Position numbers and translations under genes: made by a program
DNA from: an uncultured Verrucomicrobiota bacterium
GTDB taxonomy: Bacteria > Verrucomicrobiota > Kiritimatiellia > RZYC01
Assembly (NCBI GenBank): GCA_964490935.1
Contig: CAZBEO010000001.1
Coordinates: 20,742-84,741 of the forward strand
Reading direction: 5' to 3'
DNA: 64,000 nt
Part shown: one piece after another, positions 23,367 to 63,560 of the stretch
Position numbering within the stretch: position 1 is the first letter of the stretch
Layout of the letters: each line of letters starts with the position of its first letter
Notes under the pieces: model-generated
Seen by the model: the letters and a program-made list of their open reading frames with translations, nothing else
Told to the model about the DNA's origin: nothing
Database searches by the model: none

Positions 23367-23462
23367 GTGTTGTTTTTTTTGTCGGCTTCCCGGGGTCCGA
23401 TGACCCCGTGCCTTTCTCCCCGGCCCCTCCGGGGCCATCATGACGCTGACTTTTGTCGGTAT

Positions 23463-23560
23463 TTCCAACGATTGGAAAAAACGTCTGAAATAGTGCCAAC
23501 GATTGGAAAAACCGTAGCTGCACAGCAGTCCCGCCCACGCGGGATTTCCAATGGTTGGAA
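23463..23560. promoter_or_regulatory. three palindromic TTCCAA-N3-TTGGAA(AAAA) sites (23463..23477, 23495..23508, 23546..23560)
   Basis: Seen directly in the sequence, in the region upstream of the hydrolase gene and downstream of the giant gene. Each site is followed by an A-run. Preceded by the 13-nt GACTTTTGTCGGT, which is shared with the 50896 locus. Confidence 0.35.
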
Positions 23561-23604
23561 AAAACGATTTGAGCGGTTTTTGGCGTGCCGGGTTTCATGG
23601 TGGA

Positions 23605-31399: not shown

Positions 31400-31420
31400 A
31401 ACGATTTCGCTGATTCTTTT

Positions 31421-31435
31421 GGAGGGTGAGCGTCC
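31421..31435 (+). repeat. GGAGGGTGAGCGTCC, a REP-like dispersed motif copy
   Basis: Member of a motif family also seen at 32651, 43451, 56635, 60318 and 60436. Confidence 0.5.
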
Positions 31436-32460: not shown

Positions 32461-32650
32461 AATCTGAGACTCATATTTTCACTCTTGGAAGCCAGCATAG
32501 CCCGTTCAATTTTACTGCGCCACTTTTCTCTCCCAAAACTTTCTATGCGATCTATGCGTTCCTTGTGGTGAATGAAAAACAACAGACTCGCGATGGCCTT
32601 TGCGAAAAATGGCCCTTTCGGATCATGCCTTTCGTGTTTTACGGTTCGCG

Positions 32651-32665
32651 GGGACGCTCACCCTC
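32651..32665 (-). repeat. inverted copy of the GGAGGGTGAGCGTCC motif
   Basis: An exact reverse complement. The following ~45 nt (ATGAATGGCCATTCAACACCACGG...GCGCTACA) are a direct repeat of 31436..31480. Confidence 0.5.
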
Positions 32666-32846
32666 CATGAATGGCCATTCAACACCACGGCGCGGAAGCC
32701 CGCGCTACATTCAATCATCTTGCGCCTGCGCCATTTTCGTCCCTTGACTTTTTAGTACGTCCACTCCAAAAATAGCCGCCGGTGGAAAAGACCCATGGCA
32801 TTTCGAGCATGGCTATATTGATAGCATCAATTTCAAAGAGTGACGT

Positions 32847-43450: not shown

Positions 43451-43475
43451 GGAGGGCGAGCGTCACGGCGAACCG
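43451..43475 (+). repeat. GGAGGGCGAGCGTCACGGCGAACCG REP-like motif copy
   Basis: Closely related to the copies at 56635..56659 and 60436..60460. Confidence 0.5.
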
Positions 43476-56634: not shown

Positions 56635-56659
56635 GGAGGGCGAGCGTCCACGCGAGCCG
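56635..56659 (+). repeat. GGAGGGCGAGCGTCCACGCGAGCCG REP-like motif copy
   Basis: Intergenic, between the tatA and receiver-GHKL genes. Confidence 0.5.
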
Positions 56660-57767: not shown

Positions 57768-59648
57768 ATGTCGGAAGAAAAAAAAGAATTCAAAGCGGAA
57801 CTCAAACAGGTGATGGACATCATCATTCACTCCCTCTACTCCCACCGGGAAATCTTTCTGCGCGAACTGATTAGCAATGCCTGTGATGCCATTGACCGCC
57901 TGCGGTTTGATGCCATTCAGCAACCCGAACTCACCGGCGAGGATGCCGACTGGAGCATCCGCGTCATCGCCGATAAACAGCACGGCACCCTAACCATCGC
58001 CGATAACGGCAAAGGCATGACCCGCGAGGAAATGGACGATAACCTCGGCACCATCGCCCGCTCCGGCACCAAAAACTTCCTGCAGCAACTGAAAGAGCAG
58101 AACGCCGAAAATCGCCCCGAACTGATTGGCCAATTCGGCGTTGGCTTTTATTCCGCTTTTATGGCGGCTGATCACGTCACCGTACTCAGCCGCGCCGCCG
58201 GACAAGAGGCCGCCACCCGCTGGACCTGCGCTGGCGGAGAAGGCTACACGCTGGAAGACGCCGAAAAATCCGGACGCGGAACCGTAATCACCCTCCACCT
58301 CCGCGACGACGCCAAAGAATTTCTCGATGAATGGCGCATCCGCGAACTCGTGAAGAAGTATTCCGATTTTATTGAATATCCCATTTCACTCGAACTCGTG
58401 GATGAAAAGGGCGACTCTCCGGCCATCACCAACCCGGTGATGAATGCCATGAAGGCCATCTGGATTCGCTCGAAGTCCGACGTGACGGAAGATGAATACA
58501 ACGAATTCTACAAAGCCATCTCGCACGACTTCCAAAACCCAGCGCGCATCATTCATTATGCCGCAGAAGGCACCATGGAATTCAAGGCCCTCCTCTTCCT
58601 CCCCAGCCAGCGTCCCTTTGACTTCTTCTTTGGCGACACCAAAACCGGACCCGCACTCTACATCCAGCGCGTACAGATTATGGATCACTGCGAAAAGCTG
58701 TTGCCCCGCTACCTGCGTTTTGTCAAAGGCGTGGTGGACTCCTCCGACCTCCCCCTCAACGTCTCGCGCGAAATGGTGCAGCATAGCGCCGTCCTCGCCA
58801 AAATTCAGAAAAACCTCGTCAGCAAGGTCCTCTCCGAACTGGCTGAAATGAAAACCAAAAACTACGAAGACTACGTCAAATTCTTCAAGGAATTCGGCGA
58901 CGTACTCAAAGAGGGCGTCCACGAAGATTTTGCCAACCGCGAAAAAATCGCTGACCTGCTGCTCTTTCACTCCACCACGGCAGACAAACCGGACCAGTAT
59001 GTCACCCTGGAACAATACCTCTCCACCCTCGGCGAAGACCGCAAAGAAATCTATTACCTTTGCGGAGAACACCTCGCCGCGCTTGCCGCATCGCCCTACG
59101 TGGAAACCTTCAAAGCCAAAGGCGAAGAAGTCCTCCTCCTCACCTCGCCCGTCGACGAATGGATGATCGACGCCCTACGTGAATACAAAGGCAAAACCTT
59201 CAAAGCTGTAGACCGGGGCGAAGCCCAAATCGGCGAAGAGGAAAAAGAGGCCCTCAAACAAAATCAGGAACACTTTGCAAGCCTGCTCCAATTCCTCAAA
59301 GACAAGCTGGATACCCTCAAAGAGGTCCGCCTTTCCGCACGCCTGAAAAACAGCGCCGCCTGCCTGGTGGTGGATGAGCAAGGCATGAGCGCTCAAATGG
59401 AGCGGATGATGCGCAAAATGGGACAAGAAGTCCCTGCTGCCGAGCGAATACTGGAACTCAATCCCGAGCATCCCGCCGTCAAAACCATGCTTGAACTATA
59501 TGAAAAAGACCGCAAAGACGAACGGGTCGAGCTGTATGGACGACTCTTCTACGATGAAGCCATCATCGCCGAAGGCTCACGGTTGGAAGACCCCGCCGCC
59601 TTTGCCGAACGCATCAACCGCCTGATCGCCCGGCCCGCGAATGCCTGA
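57768..59648 (+). CDS. htpG: molecular chaperone HtpG (Hsp90)
   Basis: N-terminal YSHREIFLRELISNACDA Hsp90 ATPase signature, through to the C-terminal dimerisation domain. Confidence 0.9.
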   Translation: MSEEKKEFKAELKQVMDIIIHSLYSHREIFLRELISNACDAIDRLRFDAIQQPELTGEDADWSIRVIADKQHGTLTIADNGKGMTREEMDDNLGTIARSGTKNFLQQLKEQNAENRPELIGQFGVGFYSAFMAADHVTVLSRAAGQEAATRWTCAGGEGYTLEDAEKSGRGTVITLHLRDDAKEFLDEWRIRELVKKYSDFIEYPISLELVDEKGDSPAITNPVMNAMKAIWIRSKSDVTEDEYNEFYKAISHDFQNPARIIHYAAEGTMEFKALLFLPSQRPFDFFFGDTKTGPALYIQRVQIMDHCEKLLPRYLRFVKGVVDSSDLPLNVSREMVQHSAVLAKIQKNLVSKVLSELAEMKTKNYEDYVKFFKEFGDVLKEGVHEDFANREKIADLLLFHSTTADKPDQYVTLEQYLSTLGEDRKEIYYLCGEHLAALAASPYVETFKAKGEEVLLLTSPVDEWMIDALREYKGKTFKAVDRGEAQIGEEEKEALKQNQEHFASLLQFLKDKLDTLKEVRLSARLKNSAACLVVDEQGMSAQMERMMRKMGQEVPAAERILELNPEHPAVKTMLELYEKDRKDERVELYGRLFYDEAIIAEGSRLEDPAAFAERINRLIARPANA

Positions 59649-59782: not shown

Positions 59783-59902
59783 TTAGCAGGCACACTTCGA
59801 CTCCCCGGAATTGTGTTGAATGAGACGGTGATCAATATCCTCCGACAGGCCAATATATTTGCGCCCCGTCGCATTTTGAAGGATATACACTTGGTAATTC
59901 AT
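59783..59902 (-). pseudogene. truncated N-terminal fragment (39 codons) of a GIY-YIG gene, inside direct-repeat copy 1
   Basis: Identical to the first 36 codons of the 59989..60243 gene, followed by a premature stop. Confidence 0.45.
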
Positions 59903-59915
59903 AGATAAAAAAAGG
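59793..59915. repeat. 123-bp perfect direct repeat, copy 1 (copy 2 at 60134..60256)
   Basis: Identical base-for-base by eye; contains the GIY-YIG start and N-terminal coding region. Confidence 0.7.
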
Positions 59916-59942
59916 CCGGAACATGCGTTCCGGCCCTCAAGT

Positions 59943-59990
59943 TGGTAGCGGGGGTTGGATTCGAACCAACGGTCCCGCAGATGCGGGATT
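59943..59990 (-). other. partial tRNA-Met-like 3' half (anticodon loop CTCATAA + identical T-arm/acceptor/CCA) without a matching 5' half
   Basis: 28 nt identical to the 3' end of the tRNA at 60562..60637, plus an identical anticodon loop. The 5' region is GIY-YIG coding sequence. It is followed by the same terminator hairpin. Confidence 0.45.
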
Positions 59991-60243
59991 ATGAGCCGGG
60001 AGAAAGGCCTGTCAGTCGATATAATCCTGACCCACCTTTTTGCCGTTTTAAGAGATTTTCAAGCTTTCGGGCTTCGGTCAGGGTCAAGGGCGAAGAGGAC
60101 CAAATCAACGTCCAGGGGCCCTTTCCGCGAGTCCACTTCGACTCCCCGGAATTGTGTTGAATGAGACGGTGATCAATATCCTCCGACAGGCCAATATATT
60201 TGCGCCCCGTCGCATTTTGAAGGATATACACTTGGTAATTCAT
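59989..60243 (-). CDS. small GIY-YIG nuclease-superfamily protein (UPF0213/YhbQ-like)
   Basis: YQVYILQNATGRKYIGLSEDIDHRLIQHNSG...KWTRGKGPW motifs. Its stop codon lies in the anticodon-loop-like CTCATAA of the partial tRNA. Confidence 0.65.
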   Translation of the reverse strand: MNYQVYILQNATGRKYIGLSEDIDHRLIQHNSGESKWTRGKGPWTLIWSSSPLTLTEARKLENLLKRQKGGSGLYRLTGLSPGS

Positions 60244-60256
60244 AGATAAAAAAAGG
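60134..60256. repeat. 123-bp perfect direct repeat, copy 2
   Basis: Identical to 59793..59915. Confidence 0.7.
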
Positions 60257-60317
60257 TTCTTCCGGGTTTTTCGTGAAATCTGTACCTATCACGGACGCGA
60301 AAAGAATCTGAATATAC

Positions 60318-60342
60318 CGGCTCGCGGGGACTCTCGCCCTCC
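60318..60342 (-). repeat. inverted REP-like motif copy (CGGCTCGCGGGGACTCTCGCCCTCC)
   Basis: Reverse complement of the motif family. It could pair with the copy at 60436..60460 to form a long hairpin. Confidence 0.5.
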
Positions 60343-60435
60343 AAGTCTTGGATTTGATAGCATTAATATCCTATTCATCAACAACATGTTAAACAATTAA
60401 TAGCAAACTTGGCCTGTAATGCCCTGCAATTATGT

Positions 60436-60460
60436 GGAGGGCGAGCGTCCTCGCGAGCCG
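60436..60460 (+). repeat. GGAGGGCGAGCGTCCTCGCGAGCCG REP-like motif copy
   Basis: Sits in the tRNA-GIY-YIG spacer. Confidence 0.5.
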
Positions 60461-60523
60461 TAGAACATCAATCTTTAGAAATAGCTCAAAATGGCAGAAT
60501 GCTCACGAAATTCCCGGAAGAAC

Positions 60524-60554
60524 CTAAAAAAAGGCCGGAACATGCGTTCCGGCC
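60524..60554 (-). terminator. Rho-independent terminator downstream of tRNA-Met (GGCCGGAAC-loop-GTTCCGGCC + T7 on the minus strand)
   Basis: Hairpin plus U-run, seen directly in the sequence. An identical copy at 59905..59937 follows the partial tRNA. Confidence 0.6.
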
Positions 60555-60561
60555 CTCAAGT

Positions 60562-60637
60562 TGGTAGCGGGGGTTGGATTCGAACCAACGGCCTTCAGGT
60601 TATGAGCCTGACGAGCTACCAGGCTGCTCCACCCCGC
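60562..60637 (-). tRNA. tRNA-Met (anticodon CAT); D-arm and overall sequence resemble initiator tRNA-fMet
   Basis: The reverse complement, GCGGGGTGGAGCAGCCTGGTAGCTCGTCAGGCTCATAACCTGAAGGCCGTTGGTTCGAATCCAACCCCCGCTACCA, folds as a cloverleaf with an encoded CCA. It is nearly identical to E. coli tRNA-fMet across the D-arm and acceptor. Confidence 0.85.
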
Positions 60638-60710
60638 AGTCATTTCGTCTCGAATGGGGGGCAATATGACGCCCCTTCTTCTGCTTTGCAACCCCTTTTT
60701 TAACCTTTCT

Positions 60711-63560
60711 TTAATTCACCGGTTCGGCCTGCCCAAATCCCCAAGGCTGGGTGCGCGGGGTTTGGGTGGCGCTTTGCCAGATATACCATAGGCCGAGTTC
60801 AGGCGCATAGACGGTGCGATCGTATTTCCCGTCGCCATCGAAATCCGCCGGGACGGCATACGCGTCACTCCAGCCCCAATACTCGCTGCTCGTGGTCTGC
60901 GTGGCCGAGAGCCAGGCGCGCCACAAGCCGGTTTCCGGCGCGTAGACGGCCACATCGGCAAGACCGTCACCATCGTAATCGCCCGGCATGGCAACCGCCT
61001 GGTTGTTACCCCATGCCTGCGAACGTCCGGTTTGGGTGGCGCTCTGCCAGATCAGCCACGTACCGCTTTCCGGTACGTAGACGGCGATGTCCGTGAGTCC
61101 ATCGCCATCGTAATCGTCCGGCACGGGTCCGGCTTCATTCCAGCCCCAAGCCTGCACGCGCATCGTCTGGGTGGCGCTCTGCCAGATCAACCATGTGCCG
61201 CTTTCCGGGACATACACGGCAATGTCCGTAATACCGTCGCCATCATAATCGCCCGGCACGGGGAACGCCTCGGCCCATCCCCAAGCCTGTACGCGCGCGG
61301 TCTGCGTCGCGCTCTGCCAGATTAGCCAGGTGCCGCTTTCCGGCGCATACACGGCCACGTCATAGAGGCCATCGCCATCGAAGTCGCCCGTCACCGGATA
61401 GGCATCGCTCCAGCCCCATGCCTGGAAGCGTCCGGTCTGTGAGCTGGATTGCAGGATGCTCCACGCGCCGCCTTCTGCGTAGTAGACGGCGATATCGGCG
61501 ATGGTGTCGCCATCGTAATCGAGATAAGCGGCAGGCATCCGCATCGAAGCCTCTATGGAGGCGTCGCCGTTGTCCGCTCCATAGAATGCGCGGACCGTGT
61601 AGTAGAACGTCTGACTGTTCGTGAGGGAGGTATCGGTCCAGGAGGAGGCACCCTGAGCGGCCTCGCCCACGAATACGCCTGTCCCGCCCGGTGTGGCCGA
61701 GCGATAGATCAGGAAGCCCTTTTCGCCGCCGATCGGGGCCCAGCCGATGCGTATCGCGCGTCCCGCGCGCGTGGTCGTCAAATTCGTCAGCGCCAGGGGA
61801 TATTCATAAGCGCCCATATCCACGGCGGCACCAATGATACGACTGTTTCCGAATACATCGTTGGTACTGGCCATCCAGCTTTCGTTGGTTCCCGCATTGA
61901 TGCAGGGGGATTCGATCTGAAGCCTTGGATCGGAGTCACTCACGAATAGCGGATCGTTGGTGATGCAATGCACAAAATCCACCTGACTCGGACGAGTGCA
62001 GCAGTAGGCCATATCCACGGCGGCGCCTTCGAAGGCGTACTCGGAAACCCCCTCGTCGTCGACATTGCCGTAGATGATGGAGTTACGGATGACGGCATCC
62101 GCTCCCACGTAAAGTCCGGCATTGGTGGTTGCCGAATTGAAGGCCACCGTGCAACTGAGAAGAGAGGCTTGGGTTTCCCCTTCCTCCGAAGGAACGATGG
62201 CCACACCACCGGCCTGACCCTCGGCTTGGTTATCGGTAATGAGCGTATTTCGGACTTCAGCATCGCCTTCCAATTGAACGCCGCCGACGTCGCCCTCGCT
62301 ATAGTTTTCAACGACATAGCTGTTGATCATCCGCCCGCCGTTCACCCAAACGCCGCCGACTTTTCCGGTATGGACCACGCTGTCTACCGTTTCGCTGGTG
62401 GCTTGGTTGAAGACCATGTAGCAGGTGTCAAGGAGCCCATAGCCCTGCACATACGCGCCTCCCGCAGAGTTGGCCGTGTTAAGTAGAAGATAGGTGTTGC
62501 GCAGGATTCCCCCATCGGCGAGAAACACCCCTCCGGCGCGACCATACGGCTCCACCCCGAAGGCATAATTTCCATAGATAAAGCATTGTTGGAGCAGTCC
62601 GCCACCGTTGAGCCACGCGCCGCCGCCGGAAAGCGCCGTCCCTTGGAACAGGATGCTGCCGTTCAGCGTGCCACCGTGCTCGAAGTAAGCACCGGCGCCA
62701 CGGCGGGCGGTGTTTCCGTATACCGAGCATTCCTCGGACGTTCCATCCTGATTGAAATACAATCCGCCGCCGTCTCCAAGCGCGATGTTTTCGTGCAGAT
62801 CGCAATCGCTCGCGAGGGCGCTGTTTTCCAGGCCGAGGCCGGCGGCATCTCCATCGGATTCGTTGCCGATAAACTCGCAACGGCTGATACGCGAAGAACC
62901 TGCCGCGCGACCTCCGGCATAGGACCCCGCCCGGTTACTGATGATGCTGGCATCGGTCAGCAAGGCCTTTCCGCCCATGTTGACGCCGCCGTACCTATTG
63001 GACGCCGTGTTTCCGGAAATAGTCACATTACTGACGGTTCCGGCGAGCAATTCGAGCCCCGCGGAATAATAGTCGGCGCCGCCGGTCAGCGTGAAGGTGT
63101 GCACGAAGGCATTGCTGTGATCCACGTTCATCACGCGACAAACACCTTGTCCATTCAGGATCACATTTTCCTTGGCAGGCACGCCGTTCAGGGTCATCCG
63201 TTTGAGGACGGTCACCGGCGCGGTCAGGTTGTAGGTTCCGGGGCCGACCAGCGTGGTACCGCCCACGGCGCAGGCGTCAATCGCGTCTTGGACGTTGGTG
63301 GCGGCATCAAACCAGTTCGTGAACGGAGTAACATGCAGTCCGCTCGGTGAGACGTAATTGATAAAGCCCGACTCCACCACCCGTACGGTGCCGTGGCGGA
63401 GGCCACACCGCCCAGATTCGAGGCCGTCAGCACCACCGGATAGAGACCCGGCGCACTCCAAGAAGCCGTGATGAAGGTTTGGTCGGTGTAGGTATTCGTG
63501 ACGCCCACCCCGGTAACAGTCCAAACCAGACTGGCAGGCTTGCCGAACAGGGAAGCCCAC
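60711..63560 (-). CDS. C-terminal ~890 aa of a giant secreted protein: right-handed beta-helix region, FN3 domain, six FG-GAP-like repeats (frame A downstream of a frameshift)
   Basis: Beta-helix repeats with NxxGGG-type turns. FN3 segment (GWAPIGGEKGFLIYRSATPGG...FYYTVRAFYG). Repeats of the form GDYDGDGxxDxAVY...WxxWQSATQT. The first ~55 residues of this ORF look non-native. Confidence 0.6.
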   Translation of the reverse strand: MGFPVRQACQSGLDCYRGGRHEYLHRPNLHHGFLECAGSLSGGADGLESGRCGLRHGTVRVVESGFINYVSPSGLHVTPFTNWFDAATNVQDAIDACAVGGTTLVGPGTYNLTAPVTVLKRMTLNGVPAKENVILNGQGVCRVMNVDHSNAFVHTFTLTGGADYYSAGLELLAGTVSNVTISGNTASNRYGGVNMGGKALLTDASIISNRAGSYAGGRAAGSSRISRCEFIGNESDGDAAGLGLENSALASDCDLHENIALGDGGGLYFNQDGTSEECSVYGNTARRGAGAYFEHGGTLNGSILFQGTALSGGGAWLNGGGLLQQCFIYGNYAFGVEPYGRAGGVFLADGGILRNTYLLLNTANSAGGAYVQGYGLLDTCYMVFNQATSETVDSVVHTGKVGGVWVNGGRMINSYVVENYSEGDVGGVQLEGDAEVRNTLITDNQAEGQAGGVAIVPSEEGETQASLLSCTVAFNSATTNAGLYVGADAVIRNSIIYGNVDDEGVSEYAFEGAAVDMAYCCTRPSQVDFVHCITNDPLFVSDSDPRLQIESPCINAGTNESWMASTNDVFGNSRIIGAAVDMGAYEYPLALTNLTTTRAGRAIRIGWAPIGGEKGFLIYRSATPGGTGVFVGEAAQGASSWTDTSLTNSQTFYYTVRAFYGADNGDASIEASMRMPAAYLDYDGDTIADIAVYYAEGGAWSILQSSSQTGRFQAWGWSDAYPVTGDFDGDGLYDVAVYAPESGTWLIWQSATQTARVQAWGWAEAFPVPGDYDGDGITDIAVYVPESGTWLIWQSATQTMRVQAWGWNEAGPVPDDYDGDGLTDIAVYVPESGTWLIWQSATQTGRSQAWGNNQAVAMPGDYDGDGLADVAVYAPETGLWRAWLSATQTTSSEYWGWSDAYAVPADFDGDGKYDRTVYAPELGLWYIWQSATQTPRTQPWGFGQAEPVN

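What the first reader, a model, noticed from the sequence alone, without database searches (positions are those of the whole stretch)
59783..60637. tRNA-Met locus with a duplicated tRNA 3' half, a YhbQ-like GIY-YIG gene plus a truncated second copy, and perfect 123-bp direct repeats
A complete tRNA-Met (CAT) sits at 60562..60637. Its anticodon loop plus T-arm/acceptor/CCA reappear at 59943..59990, where the 5' part is instead the 3' end of a GIY-YIG ORF. The ORF's stop codon is the TAA of the loop sequence CTCATAA. Both tRNA ends are followed by identical terminator hairpins. A 123-bp segment carrying the GIY-YIG start and first 36 codons is duplicated perfectly (59793..59915 and 60134..60256), and the downstream copy is truncated to 39 codons. 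This looks like the scar of a tandem duplication or integration event targeting the tRNA anticodon loop, or else an assembly collapse.
Basis: seen in the sequence. Interest (0 to 1): 0.6.

Follow-up and report, generated by a model that had tools for sequence, protein, structure and literature searches.

The report
Nuclease cassette beside initiator tRNA gene
Beside the initiator tRNA gene sits a tiny nuclease gene whose last codons run into a broken second copy of that tRNA. The same arrangement, often in tandem arrays, recurs in about 60 other Verrucomicrobiota/PVC genomes, and I found no description of it.

Summary

**Layout on the minus strand**
- An intact initiator-type tRNA-Met with a terminator.
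- An 84-aa Slx1/UPF0213-type GIY-YIG gene. Its stop codon is the TAA of GGCTCATAA, the tRNA anticodon stem and loop.
- A 16-nt hairpin that replaces tRNA positions 39-46.
- tRNA positions 47-76 with a terminator.
- A second copy of the nuclease gene, cut off at codon 37.

One copy is split by the insertion.

**The same cassette elsewhere**
- tRNA-fMet, then a GIY-YIG ORF ending in the anticodon loop, then the hairpin and tRNA 47-76, occurs in 61 of 80 loci fetched from other genomes.
- 17 loci hold two or more copies, full or partial.
- Three loci have a mirror-image version.
- tRNA-Asn versions exist with diverged paralogues.
- The ORFs are under purifying selection.
- No integrase or other gene is a conserved neighbour.

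**Most likely reading (about 0.45)**
A self-contained cassette that duplicates, and occasionally spreads, by recombination through its tRNA-derived repeats. The nuclease probably supplies the break.

**Main rival (about 0.3)**
A vertically inherited host operon.

I found no prior description.

The parts
60562..60638 (-). Intact initiator-type tRNA-Met(CAT), with a U1xU72 mismatch and an A11:U24 pair. The anticodon stem is UCAGG/CCUGA.
   Evidence: ARAGORN. Rfam tRNA at 63.8 bits. Sequence.
60526..60557 (-). Intrinsic terminator after the tRNA: a 12-pair stem followed by a T-run. It belongs to repeat copy 2.
   Evidence: Terminator scan. Lies within the 67-nt 100% repeat.
60255..60524 (.). 270-bp MITE-like insertion that splits repeat copy 2. 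It has 23-nt terminal inverted repeats (GGTTCTTCCGGG...) and is flanked by the 8-bp duplication TAAAAAAA (60247-60254 and 60525-60532). Inside it are two inverted copies of a 24-26 nt repeat that also occurs elsewhere in the window.
   Evidence: Inverted repeats I1 and I2. The uninterrupted copy at 59906-59915 shows the empty site. Fold energy -108.5 kcal/mol, z = -6.05. The inner motif recurs at 56635, 43451 and 32643.
59989..60243 (-). Intact 84-aa GIY-YIG nuclease gene of the stand-alone UPF0213/Slx1 type. Its start codon lies 4 nt after the terminator T-run, and its stop codon is the TAA of the tRNA anticodon loop.
   Evidence: ORF list. Pfam PF01541 at 2.2e-12. PDB profile hits 1zg2 (8.7e-9), 1ywl and SLX1. 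AF2 model with pLDDT 90.8; best folds are UPF0213 and Slx1.
59989..59997 (-). GGCTCATAA: the last two bases of the tRNA anticodon stem 5' strand plus the 7-nt loop. It encodes Gly-Ser-stop.
   Evidence: The same 9-mer ends 52 of 84 family ORFs.
59973..59988 (-). Conserved hairpin TCCCGC-ATCT-GCGGGA, which replaces tRNA positions 39-46.
   Evidence: The stem is TCCCGC/GCGGGA in 46 of 52 distinct pseudo-halves, with compensatory variants and a hypervariable loop.
59943..59972 (-). Pseudo-tRNA 3' segment (positions 47-76: CC, T-arm, acceptor 3' strand, ACCA). It is identical to the intact tRNA.
   Evidence: WIN row, 0 mismatches.
59907..59938 (-). Second copy of the terminator. It belongs to repeat copy 1.
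   Evidence: Terminator scan. 67-nt repeat.
59783..59902 (-). Truncated distal copy of the nuclease gene, a 39-codon ORF. It is identical to the intact gene through codon 36 and breaks inside codon 37, the W of the conserved SKWT motif.
   Evidence: Comparable partial distal copies in L043, L015 and L008.
59793..59972 (-). Repeat copy 1: 180 nt comprising tRNA 47-76, the terminator and ORF codons 1-36. Copy 2 is 60134-60254 plus 60525-60591, with the shared TAAAAAAA counted once.
   Evidence: Exact matches of 123 nt and 67 nt that overlap by 10 nt.

Best explanation
**What is shown**
The locus holds one and a half tandem copies of a cassette of about 340 bp. The cassette is attached to the initiator-tRNA gene in many Verrucomicrobiota/PVC genomes.

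One cassette contains, in order:
- a copy of tRNA positions 47-76 with a terminator;
- an ~85-aa stand-alone GIY-YIG (Slx1/UPF0213-like) nuclease gene, whose 3' end and stop codon are built from the tRNA 5' half and anticodon loop;
- a conserved hairpin that replaces tRNA positions 39-46.

The nuclease gene therefore always sits between an intact tRNA gene and a hairpin-disrupted pseudo-copy of it. It is bracketed by direct repeats of tRNA sequence.

**History of this window (inferred, about 0.75)**
1. Unequal recombination between the tRNA 3' end with its terminator and the pseudo-copy made a second cassette.
2. That distal copy lost everything after codon 36.
3. A 270-bp MITE-like element then inserted into the terminator T-run of the proximal copy.

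**How the cassette works (inferred, about 0.45)**
- It is a self-contained, largely selfish cassette. It persists, duplicates and occasionally moves by recombination through its tRNA-derived homology blocks.
- A crossover in the 47-76 block gives the common layout. A crossover in the 1-38 block gives the mirror layout.
- The nuclease most plausibly supplies the initiating break. The break would be in the tRNA gene's anticodon arm, which is the only part of the tRNA missing from the pseudo-copy, or at the hairpin. The hairpin-bearing pseudo-tRNA would then be the uncuttable donor or cognate site.
- This resembles homing by a free-standing endonuclease gene, and SegB-driven segmental amplification in the phage T4/T6 tRNA cluster.

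**Not settled**
Which DNA the nuclease cuts, and what the hairpin does, are not shown.
For: **Conserved architecture**
- 61 of 80 loci from other genomes have tRNA-Met upstream and loop plus hairpin directly after the ORF. 3 of 80 have the mirror layout, and 17 of 80 hold two or more copies, full or partial (sequences).
- 61 of 84 ORFs end in GS-stop, and 52 of 84 end in GGCTCATAA.
- The tRNA-derived stretch at the ORF end runs 7-23 nt in most loci. It is nearly the full 5' half in L039 and L212.

**Which parts travel together**
- The hairpin goes with the ORF, not with the host tRNA. The variant stem TCCGGC/GCCGGA is confined to one protein clade, and it sits in the same array as standard modules in L046 and L069.
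- The 47-76 tail is identical to the adjacent tRNA in 53 of 70 pseudo-halves, although T-stems differ between species.

**Both layouts fit one model**
Crossovers on either side of the hairpin predict the common layout and the mirror layout seen in L042, L073 and L075.

**The design was rebuilt on a second tRNA**
tRNA-Asn(GTT) modules use diverged GIY-YIG paralogues. In L035 the stop lies in GGCTGTTAA and a hairpin again replaces positions 39-46.

**Gain, loss and decay**
- A syntenic empty site: L125 versus L058, L045 and L077.
- Decayed modules: L094, L134, the third copy in L002 and the second copy in L058.

**The protein looks active**
- The alignment-invariant residues include Y16, R26, H30 and E62, which I take to be GIY-YIG catalytic positions; Y6 is nearly invariant.
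- Median dN/dS is 0.29, and selection also holds between array paralogues.
- The fold matches Slx1, a structure-specific nuclease.

**No partner or vehicle**
- No other conserved neighbour gene, hence no integrase partner.
- Not found on phage contigs or plasmids.

**Published analogy**
The GIY-YIG endonuclease SegB in the T4/T6 tRNA cluster cuts in the tRNA region and drives tandem segmental amplification (PMC2330249, PMC13096335).
Against: - No cleavage site is known, and the 84-aa protein has no DNA-binding domain. Sequence-specific homing is therefore not obviously possible.
- The intact tRNA gene stays next to the cassette. If it were the target, it would remain cuttable.
- At population scale the locus is stable. 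The same protein sits in the same context, with the same two-gene array, in every contig from many samples.
- ORFs from syntenic genomes cluster together. Synonymous sites are saturated between lineages, and both paralogues of old arrays stay under purifying selection. These points fit long vertical inheritance and a host-level function as well.
- The empty site in L125 could be a clean loss by repeat recombination rather than an uninvaded allele.
- The asymmetry in T-stem differences could be an edge effect of gene conversion next to the hairpin.
Confidence: 0.45

Rival explanations
1. **Vertically inherited host operon.** An ancient tandem duplication of the initiator-tRNA gene trapped a small nuclease gene, which is co-transcribed with the tRNA. 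The hairpin plus pseudo-tRNA tail acts at the RNA level as a 3'-end, stability or processing element, or merely inactivates the spare copy. Arrays, partial copies and losses are ordinary unequal crossing-over between the repeats. Identity of the tails is gene conversion.
For: - The same locus occurs across all classes of the phylum.
- Context is stable in every sample holding identical proteins.
- Purifying selection is long-term, including on both paralogues of old arrays.
- ORFs of syntenic genomes cluster together.
- The ORF start abuts the tRNA 3' end or terminator without a promoter of its own.
- No vehicle was found: no phage or plasmid copies.
Against: - The same design was rebuilt on tRNA-Asn with a different paralogue and on different flanking sequence.
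- The mirror layout exists.
- The hairpin stem is conserved in sequence, not only in pairing, while its loop is hypervariable. A plain RNA stabiliser would be expected to covary more.
- Extra hairpin copies have entered the T-loop and other positions of pseudo-tRNAs.
- Decayed and missing modules in close relatives argue against an essential function.
Confidence: 0.3
2. **Integrase-dependent miniature island (CIME-like).** The cassette is a remnant or non-autonomous integrative element flanked by attL, which is the tRNA, and attR, which is the pseudo-copy. Tyrosine integrases of larger islands that use the same tRNA move and stack it in trans. The nuclease is cargo.
For: - Direct repeats of the tRNA 3' end flank the cassette, as in tRNA-integrated islands.
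- The same tRNA's anticodon loop is used by other insertions. L024 and L026 are 97.6% identical to the right of tRNA position ~29/30 and unrelated to the left of it. L015, L032, L039, L057 and L063 have similarly truncated tRNAs.
- The L058 insert also carries a lipoprotein gene between pseudo-tRNA remnants.
- Chimeric T-stems suggest junctions in the T-loop. By my own knowledge (Williams 2002, not read here), the T-loop is a classical integrase crossover site.
Against: - No integrase or any other gene recurs near the cassettes.
- Crossovers appear on both sides of the hairpin, giving two layouts. That is unlike a fixed-site recombinase.
- The model does not explain why the only conserved cargo is always this nuclease under purifying selection.
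- It does not explain the hairpin either.
Confidence: 0.12
3. **Toxin-antitoxin or defence module.** The nuclease is a toxin or effector, and the pseudo-tRNA/hairpin RNA is its antidote, decoy or sensor, loosely like type III toxin-antitoxin systems with repeated RNA.
For: - L071 has three 60-nt pseudo-tRNA/hairpin units in tandem upstream of the ORF.
- Weak PADLOC hits to PDC-S14, best E-value 1.4e-4.
- An addiction mechanism would explain persistence despite the flanking direct repeats.
Against: - The repeated-RNA array occurs in only one or two loci.
- The PADLOC hits cover only the generic GIY-YIG domain.
- By my own knowledge, GIY-YIG enzymes are DNA nucleases with no RNase precedent.
- No defence-island context was seen.
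Confidence: 0.05
4. **Assembly artefact.** The duplicated 180-nt block is a mis-join or a collapsed/expanded repeat.
For: - Perfect identity of the two copies.
- Many homologues lie on very short contigs, which shows that such loci are hard to assemble.
Against: - The two copies have different unique neighbours. Only one carries the 270-bp insertion.
- The same partial-distal-copy layout recurs in independent assemblies, including an isolate genome and closed chromosomes.
Confidence: 0.03

Closest known systems
Free-standing GIY-YIG homing endonuclease genes in phage tRNA clusters (T4/T6 SegB)
   Same: - A GIY-YIG nuclease gene lies between tRNA genes.
- SegB cuts in the tRNA gene region and promotes inheritance of its own locus (PMC2330249).
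- SegB drives tandem segmental amplification of a tRNA-plus-segB unit (PMC13096335).
- In both cases the repeats bracketing the unit are tRNA-region sequence.
   Different: - By my own knowledge of the Seg family, SegB is about 2-3 times larger and has a DNA-binding region. The protein here is a bare 84-aa catalytic domain of the Slx1/UPF0213 branch.
- The cassette here is chromosomal in bacteria, not phage-borne.
- Here the ORF is fused to a pseudo-tRNA that carries a conserved hairpin.
- No cleavage activity has been shown.
tRNA-integrated genomic islands and non-autonomous derivatives (CIMEs), including tandem accretion
   Same: - An intact tRNA at one end and a displaced partial tRNA repeat at the other.
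- Tandem stacking at one tRNA gene.
- Presence/absence between relatives.
   Different: - About 340 bp and no integrase in cis or as a conserved neighbour.
- The repeat is interrupted by a hairpin that replaces positions 39-46.
- Homology extends on both sides of the hairpin, and both crossover products exist.
UPF0213 / YhbQ / prokaryotic Slx1-like stand-alone GIY-YIG proteins
   Same: - Same minimal domain and fold: 1zg2, 1ywl and SLX1.
- Called the minimal, possibly ancestral form of the superfamily (PMC1564403).
- Function unknown.
   Different: - This subfamily has its own conserved C-terminal motif, LKRQKGGxG(F/L).
- It has a fixed genomic context.
- No curated NCBIfam model covers it.
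Group I introns with homing endonuclease genes in bacterial tRNA anticodon loops (including tRNA-fMet in cyanobacteria; PMC3984707 appeared in a search, but was not read; this is my own knowledge)
   Same: - A mobile-element association with the anticodon loop of tRNA genes.
- GIY-YIG endonucleases are common intron passengers.
   Different: - No intron or ribozyme is present. The only Rfam match that reaches its family's gathering score is the tRNA; the other two are weak sub-threshold hits.
- The functional tRNA is uninterrupted.
- The ORF lies between two gene copies, not inside one.
Integron gene-cassette arrays
   Same: Same-orientation arrays of promoterless small ORFs, each followed by a structured palindromic site, downstream of a fixed entry point.
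   Different: - All cassettes encode the same nuclease.
- There is no IntI integrase.
- The site is a 16-nt hairpin inside a pseudo-tRNA, not an attC.

Membership tests
GIY-YIG nuclease superfamily | Match to the GIY-YIG catalytic domain model above the curated threshold | tested here: met
   PF01541: E = 2.2e-12, 47.5 bits against a cut-off of 22.6.
GIY-YIG nuclease superfamily | Catalytic residues conserved: Tyr of the GIY motif, Tyr of the YIG motif, Arg, His and Glu | tested here: met
   Y16, R26, H30 and E62 are invariant and Y6 is nearly invariant in 31 sequences. The consensus over 84 ORFs agrees.
GIY-YIG nuclease superfamily | The GIY-YIG alpha/beta fold | tested here: met
   AF2 model with pLDDT 90.8. 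Best PDB matches are UPF0213 BH0048, Slx1, EF2693 and the UvrC N-terminal domain.
UPF0213 / YhbQ-like (prokaryotic Slx1-like) subfamily | Closest sequence relatives are stand-alone ~100-aa UPF0213 proteins, with no extra domains | tested here: met
   Profile against PDB: 1zg2 at 8.7e-9, 1ywl at 1.7e-6, then SLX1. Protein length 81-137 aa, mean 88.
Free-standing homing endonuclease gene | Site-specific cleavage of the allele that lacks the gene | not testable with these tools
   Needs biochemistry. No target has been shown.
Free-standing homing endonuclease gene | Presence/absence polymorphism at the same site in related genomes | tested here: met
   L125 is empty, while L058, L045 and L077 are occupied with synteny on both sides. 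Loss cannot be told apart from non-invasion.
Free-standing homing endonuclease gene | A DNA-binding or target-recognition region in addition to the catalytic domain | tested here: not met
   The 84 aa hold the catalytic domain plus a ~20-aa basic tail.
Free-standing homing endonuclease gene | Evidence of recent horizontal spread | tested here: inconclusive
   - Identical proteins always sit in the same context.
- The NJ tree on 85 aa is poorly resolved.
- The tRNA-Asn version shows at least one ancient retargeting.
tRNA-integrated genomic island / integrative element | Direct repeat of the tRNA 3' part at the distal end | tested here: met
   Positions 47-76 are repeated, and 53 of 70 copies are identical to the tRNA.
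tRNA-integrated genomic island / integrative element | An integrase (tyrosine or serine recombinase) gene in or next to the element | tested here: not met
   Clustering of all ORFs of at least 90 aa in the 80 loci finds no shared family beyond the nuclease and tRNA-overlapping reading frames. The largest other cluster covers 14 loci or fewer.
Bacterial initiator tRNA (tRNA-fMet) | Mismatch at positions 1:72 and an A11:U24 pair | tested here: met
   U1xU72 and A11:U24 in the window tRNA. C1xA72 in most related loci.
Bacterial initiator tRNA (tRNA-fMet) | Three consecutive G:C pairs at the bottom of the anticodon stem | tested here: not met
   Two G:C pairs plus A29:U41 (UCAGG/CCUGA). The same variant is seen in all related loci and in 120 metagenome tRNAs. 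It is therefore a lineage-wide variant rather than evidence for an elongator tRNA.
MITE (the 270-bp insertion) | Terminal inverted repeats, a target-site duplication and no coding capacity | tested here: met
   23-nt TIR at 91%. TAAAAAAA on both sides, with an uninterrupted empty site in the other repeat copy. Only short ORFs inside.
MITE (the 270-bp insertion) | Multiple copies in the genome | tested here: inconclusive
   No second full copy in the 64-kb window. Only its inner 24-26 nt motif recurs.
REP/RAYT-like dispersed palindrome system | The palindrome is dispersed genome-wide in many copies | tested here: not met
   Outside the cassette zones there are 2 copies in 182 kb of flanks (0.4 expected) and 1 in 62 kb of window (0.15 expected).
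Type III toxin-antitoxin | A tandem array of short RNA repeats next to the toxin gene | tested here: not met
   Absent in the window. Seen only in L071 and, in part, L035.

The most novel reading that the evidence does not exclude
This may be a previously unrecognised class of minimal, self-contained mobile cassette of about 340 bp.

- An ~85-aa Slx1-like GIY-YIG nuclease would use tRNA genes that read ANN codons as both target and homology arms. Those tRNAs have anticodon loops ending in UAA, which supplies the ORF's stop codon.
- The nuclease would mark its own pseudo-tRNA copy with a cognate hairpin.
- The cassette would spread or amplify by break-induced recombination, without any recombinase.

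If true, this would also give the first functional context for the UPF0213/YhbQ/prokaryotic Slx1 family.
Probability: 0.3. Interest if true: 0.85.

Novelty: new variant of a known kind. Interest (0 to 1): 0.72.

Why it matters
- **An orphan protein family gets a context.** Stand-alone UPF0213/YhbQ/Slx1-like GIY-YIG proteins are widespread, have been solved structurally and still have no assigned function. Here one subfamily has a rigid, phylum-wide DNA context that names candidate substrates: the tRNA-fMet gene's anticodon arm and a 16-nt hairpin. That makes its activity directly testable.
- **It could be one of the smallest autonomous mobile units.** If the cassette is break-driven, it would show how a universally conserved tRNA gene can serve as a portable homology arm while the functional tRNA is kept intact.
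- **It affects genome annotation.** The pseudo-tRNA halves, the ORFs that end inside them and their tandem arrays are likely to break assemblies and confuse tRNA and gene callers in PVC genomes.

Tried and rejected
1. **The hairpin's 3' strand as an acceptor 5' strand (tRNA minihelix mimic).** Rejected. The variant stem TCCGGC/GCCGGA keeps the hairpin but not pairing with the acceptor. The tRNA-Asn versions use TCCGCC/GGCGGA or TCCCGC/GCGGGA, neither related to the Asn acceptor.
2. **A genome-wide REP-like palindrome spread by the nuclease.** Rejected. There is no meaningful excess outside the cassette zones.
3. **A conserved partner gene such as an integrase.** None found.
4. **Carriage on phages or plasmids.** None found. 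IMG/VR gave no confirmed relative. PLSDB gave only distant YhbQ-like hits at 33-42% identity.
5. **Rfam hits to MicC and suhB at the locus.** Both are far below their gathering scores and are driven by the terminator hairpins, so they are chance matches.
6. **A decayed C-terminal half downstream of the truncated copy.** Only a weak in-frame similarity: 25.6% over 39 aa, E = 0.006 in a 300-nt search space. It overlaps the end of htpG. I treat it as not real.
7. **Occupancy from a metagenome scan for the intact tRNA core.** Only 3 of 105 loci carry the cassette. The tRNA core is shared by many phyla, so this figure is not an occupancy estimate. It did yield the empty site L125 and the decayed sites L094 and L134.
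8. **Recent mobility, tested by looking up identical proteins in many samples.** Always the same context.
9. **The source strain.** The exact window protein is not in the public protein collection, so no sister strains could be compared.
10. **Literature.** Seven searches found no description of this arrangement.
Full report
**1. The observation**

On the minus strand the window reads as follows.
- tRNA-Met(CAT) at 60638..60562. ARAGORN finds it and Rfam scores it 63.8 bits. It has a U1xU72 mismatch and an A11:U24 pair, so it is initiator-type.
- A 12-pair intrinsic terminator.
- A 270-bp block at 60524..60255.
- An 84-codon ORF at 60243..59989 that ends ...CCC GGC TCA TAA.
- The hairpin TCCCGC-ATCT-GCGGGA at 59988..59973.
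- CC, the T-arm, the acceptor 3' strand and ACCA at 59972..59943.
- The same terminator again.
- ATG and 36 codons identical to the ORF, running into a 39-codon ORF at 59902..59783.
- 134 nt of unrelated sequence, then the stop codon of a convergent htpG gene at 59648.

The exact repeats of 123 nt and 67 nt overlap by 10 nt. They are one perfect 180-nt repeat made of tRNA 47-76, the terminator and ORF codons 1-36. The period is 341 bp.

The upstream copy is split by the 270-bp block. That block has 23-nt terminal inverted repeats and folds far better than shuffles (z = -6.05). It is flanked by TAAAAAAA on both sides, whereas the other repeat copy shows the uninterrupted site GATAAAAAAAGGCCGG. 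It is therefore a MITE-like insertion that came after the duplication.

Two things were missed: this insertion, and the fact that the pseudo-copy carries a 16-nt hairpin in place of tRNA positions 39-46.

**2. The protein**

- The ORF matches Pfam GIY-YIG at 2.2e-12. No curated NCBIfam model covers it.
- A profile of 31 homologues hits the solved UPF0213 proteins BH0048 (8.7e-9) and EF2693, then SLX1.
- The AlphaFold model is confident, with pLDDT 90.8. Its best structural matches are the same proteins and the Slx1 nuclease domain.
- The alignment-invariant residues include Y16, R26, H30 and E62, which I take to be GIY-YIG catalytic positions; Y6 is nearly invariant. The subfamily has its own conserved basic C-terminal motif, LKRQKGGxG(F/L).

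**3. The lead that changed the picture**

In the alignment of homologues nearly all proteins end in Gly-Ser-stop. That is GGC TCA TAA, the tRNA anticodon stem and loop.

I fetched 80 loci from species-representative genomes. 254 stretches were confirmed in all, almost all from Verrucomicrobiota, with a few from Kiritimatiellia, Lentisphaerae and other PVC bins. The architecture is conserved across them.
- 65 of 80 have an intact tRNA-Met on the same strand within 260 nt upstream of the ORF.
- 71 of 80 have loop plus hairpin directly after an ORF.
- 61 of 80 have both.
- Of 84 intact ORFs, 61 end in GS-stop and 52 end in GGCTCATAA.
- The tRNA-derived stretch at the ORF end is 7-23 nt in most loci. 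It is almost the whole 5' half in L039 and L212, where the last codons are encoded by the pseudo-tRNA acceptor and D arm.

The unit is therefore a nuclease gene lying between an intact tRNA-fMet gene and a second, hairpin-disrupted copy of it, with the ORF reading into that copy.

**4. Repeats, arrays and variants**

*The tail.* Positions 47-76 of the pseudo-copy are identical to the neighbouring tRNA in 53 of 70 comparisons, although T-stems differ widely between species. Where they differ, it is mostly the T-stem 5' strand next to the hairpin that differs, while the 3' strand matches the host. That holds in 8 or more cases against 1. This could mean junctions in the T-loop, or an edge effect of gene conversion.

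*The hairpin.* The stem is TCCCGC/GCGGGA in 46 of 52 distinct pseudo-halves. There are double compensatory changes at two pairs. The loop is hypervariable, with 40 different loops of 2-7 nt. The variant stem TCCGGC/GCCGGA is confined to one protein clade and co-exists with standard modules in the same arrays (L046, L069). The hairpin is thus inherited with the ORF, while the tail is homogenised with the host tRNA.

*Arrays.* 17 of 80 loci hold two or more copies, full or partial. Copies range from identical (L002, L004, L072) to saturated at synonymous sites yet still under purifying selection (L046, L069, L038). L071 has three ORF-less 60-nt loop-hairpin-tail units in tandem.

*Mirror layout.* Three loci (L042, L073, L075) read: promoter, tRNA 1-38, hairpin, part of the T-arm, ORF, intact tRNA.

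*tRNA-Asn versions.* These use diverged paralogues. In L035 the ORF ends GGC TGT TAA in the Asn loop, and a hairpin TCCGCC-TCA-GGCGGA replaces positions 39-46, although that segment's sequence differs from the Met one. In L016 a hairpin replaces positions 26-34 instead.

The common denominator is that one strand of the anticodon stem is replaced by a TCC...GGA hairpin. A stop codon in the loop is only possible for tRNAs with U36-A37-A38, that is, readers of ANN codons. Met and Asn both qualify.

*Extra hairpins.* Further copies sit in the T-loop or after the acceptor of some pseudo-tRNAs.

**5. Dynamics**

- A syntenic empty site exists. L125 has the tRNA, a terminator and an aroB-like gene. 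L058, L045 and L077 have about 1.2 kb more between the same tRNA and the same gene. In L058 the extra DNA is an intact module, a decayed one, a lipoprotein ORF and a last pseudo-tRNA remnant.
- L094 holds a frameshifted module with a degenerate hairpin. L134 holds a solitary tail remnant.
- The right-hand end of the duplicated segment is most often at the tRNA 3' end (30-35 nt). It sometimes runs through the terminator (47-73 nt) and occasionally into the next ORF.
- The window (about 190 nt in that comparison, 180 nt exact), L043 (193 nt) and L015 (192 nt) all break inside the codons for the conserved SKW(T) motif. I cannot explain this coincidence.
- The same tRNA is also hit by other insertions at the anticodon loop. 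L024 and L026 are 97.6% identical over 2.9 kb to the right of tRNA position ~29/30 and unrelated to the left of it. L015, L032, L039, L057 and L063 look the same.
- At population scale I saw no movement. Identical proteins found in up to 24 contigs from many samples always sit in the same context.
- There are no relatives in viral contigs or on plasmids.
- No other gene family recurs next to the cassette, so there is no integrase partner.

**6. How it most likely works**

*Shown.* The anatomy, its conservation, purifying selection on the nuclease (median dN/dS 0.29), tandem duplication, decay and absence in relatives, and re-creation of the design on a second tRNA.

*Inferred for this window (about 0.75).*
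1. Unequal recombination between the tRNA 3' end with its terminator and the identical pseudo-copy made a second cassette.
2. The distal copy lost everything after codon 36.
3. A MITE-like element then inserted in the proximal terminator T-run.

*Inferred for the cassette (about 0.45).* It behaves as a self-contained, largely selfish unit that recombines through its two tRNA homology blocks.
- A circle, or a donor copy, of the form [tRNA x..38, hairpin, tRNA 47..y, spacer, ORF] that crosses over with the chromosomal tRNA in the 47-76 block gives the common layout.
- A crossover in the 1-38 block gives the mirror layout.
- Equivalently, a double-strand break in the intact tRNA gene at the anticodon arm could be repaired by synthesis-dependent annealing from a donor pseudo-copy. 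The anticodon arm is the only part missing from the pseudo-copy. Such repair would copy the ORF while regenerating an intact tRNA, and repeated breaks would build arrays.

The nearest published behaviour is SegB, a GIY-YIG endonuclease in the T4/T6 tRNA cluster. It cuts in the tRNA region (PMC2330249) and drives tandem amplification of a tRNA-plus-segB segment (PMC13096335).

*Weak points of this reading.*
- The protein has no DNA-binding domain.
- The intact tRNA next to the cassette would remain cuttable.
- The hairpin's sequence conservation points to recognition by a protein, but I cannot say which protein or why.

**7. Rivals**

- **Vertically inherited host operon, with gene conversion and unequal crossing-over (about 0.3).** It fits the stability, the old paralogues and the lack of a vehicle. 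It does not explain the Asn versions, the mirror layout or the hairpin.
- **Integrase-dependent miniature island (about 0.12).** It fits the att-like repeats and the evidence that this tRNA is an integration hot spot. There is no conserved integrase, and the crossover position is not fixed.
- **Toxin-antitoxin or defence reading (about 0.05) and assembly artefact (about 0.03).** Both are poorly supported.

**8. Comparison with what is known, and novelty**

- Membership of the GIY-YIG superfamily and of the UPF0213/Slx1-like branch is met on sequence, residues and fold.
- Membership of 'homing endonuclease gene' is only partly met. Polymorphism is present, a recognition domain is absent, and cleavage could not be tested.
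- Membership of 'integrative island' fails on the integrase.
- The 2006 superfamily survey describes stand-alone Slx1-like domains as the minimal form, without assigning a function (PMC1564403).
- Seven full-text searches found nothing on a tRNA-fMet-linked GIY-YIG cassette, a pseudo-tRNA with this hairpin, or Verrucomicrobial arrays of this kind. Subscription-only literature was not searchable.

I rate it a new variant of a known kind: a free-standing nuclease-gene cassette at tRNA genes. I give it about 0.3 probability of being a new class of minimal mobile element. Interest is 0.72.

Noticed in passing
window 56635-56658 (+), 43451-43474 (+), 32643-32666 (-), partial at 31420-31435, and two inverted copies inside the insertion at 60319-60342 (-) and 60436-60459 (+): A dispersed 24-26 nt repeat, GGAGGGCGAGCGTCCNCGCGAGCC, lies in intergenic-looking positions. 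The 270-bp MITE-like insertion carries two inverted copies of it. Its nature is unknown.
   Followed up: partly
window 60717-61489 (minus-strand ORF 60711..63560): Six tandem 135-nt (45-aa) repeats lie in the C-terminal part of a 949-aa protein. The motif is GDYDGDGxxDIAVYxPExGxWxIWQSATQT, which looks like FG-GAP/VCBS repeats. This ORF is the tRNA's upstream neighbour.
   Followed up: no
window 23440-23575: The only other copy of the hairpin TCCCGC-N4-GCGGGA in the window is at 23529. It lies among three copies of a CCAACGATTGGAAAAAAC-like motif, between two long minus-strand ORFs. About 0.15 hairpin copies are expected by chance in the window.
   Followed up: partly
L024 versus L026, around locus position 2387; also L015, L032, L039, L057, L063: Two genomes are 97.6% identical to the right of tRNA-fMet position ~29/30 and unrelated to the left of it. 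In six loci the 'intact' tRNA upstream of the cassette lacks its 5' half. Other, presumably large, DNA insertions therefore target the anticodon loop of the same tRNA.
   Followed up: partly
window 59793/60134; L043 2962; L015 2980; L008 3010: The truncated distal ORF copies of independent lineages break at almost the same place, inside the codons for SKW(T): AARTG|G. L008 breaks 30 nt further on, at GTATG|G. The cause is unknown. It could be a preferred break site or microhomology.
   Followed up: partly
L016 2998-3330 and L035 2860-3420: tRNA-Asn(GTT) genes carry an analogous cassette with a diverged GIY-YIG paralogue. In L016 the hairpin replaces tRNA positions 26-34 instead of 39-46.
   Followed up: partly
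L001, L006, L052, L078, L202 (T-loop of the pseudo-tRNA); L072 2786 (after the acceptor); L079 2723 (inside the ORF 3' end): Extra copies of the same hairpin have replaced the T-loop or been added at other positions of pseudo-tRNAs. In L202 the T-loop copy is identical, loop included, to the hairpin of the next module, which suggests local copying.
   Followed up: partly
window 60241-60256 and 59900-59915; L058 2476-2486; L036 2488-2497: The nuclease ORF starts 0-10 nt after the terminator T-run or the tRNA 3' end. It has no Shine-Dalgarno sequence or promoter of its own. Expression must depend on read-through and processing of the tRNA transcript, or on leaderless-like initiation.
   Followed up: no
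L212 3090-3170: In this lineage the ORF stops at a TAG inside the D-loop of an almost complete pseudo-tRNA. If RNase P processed that pseudo-tRNA, the mRNA would lose its stop codon. This is speculative.
   Followed up: no
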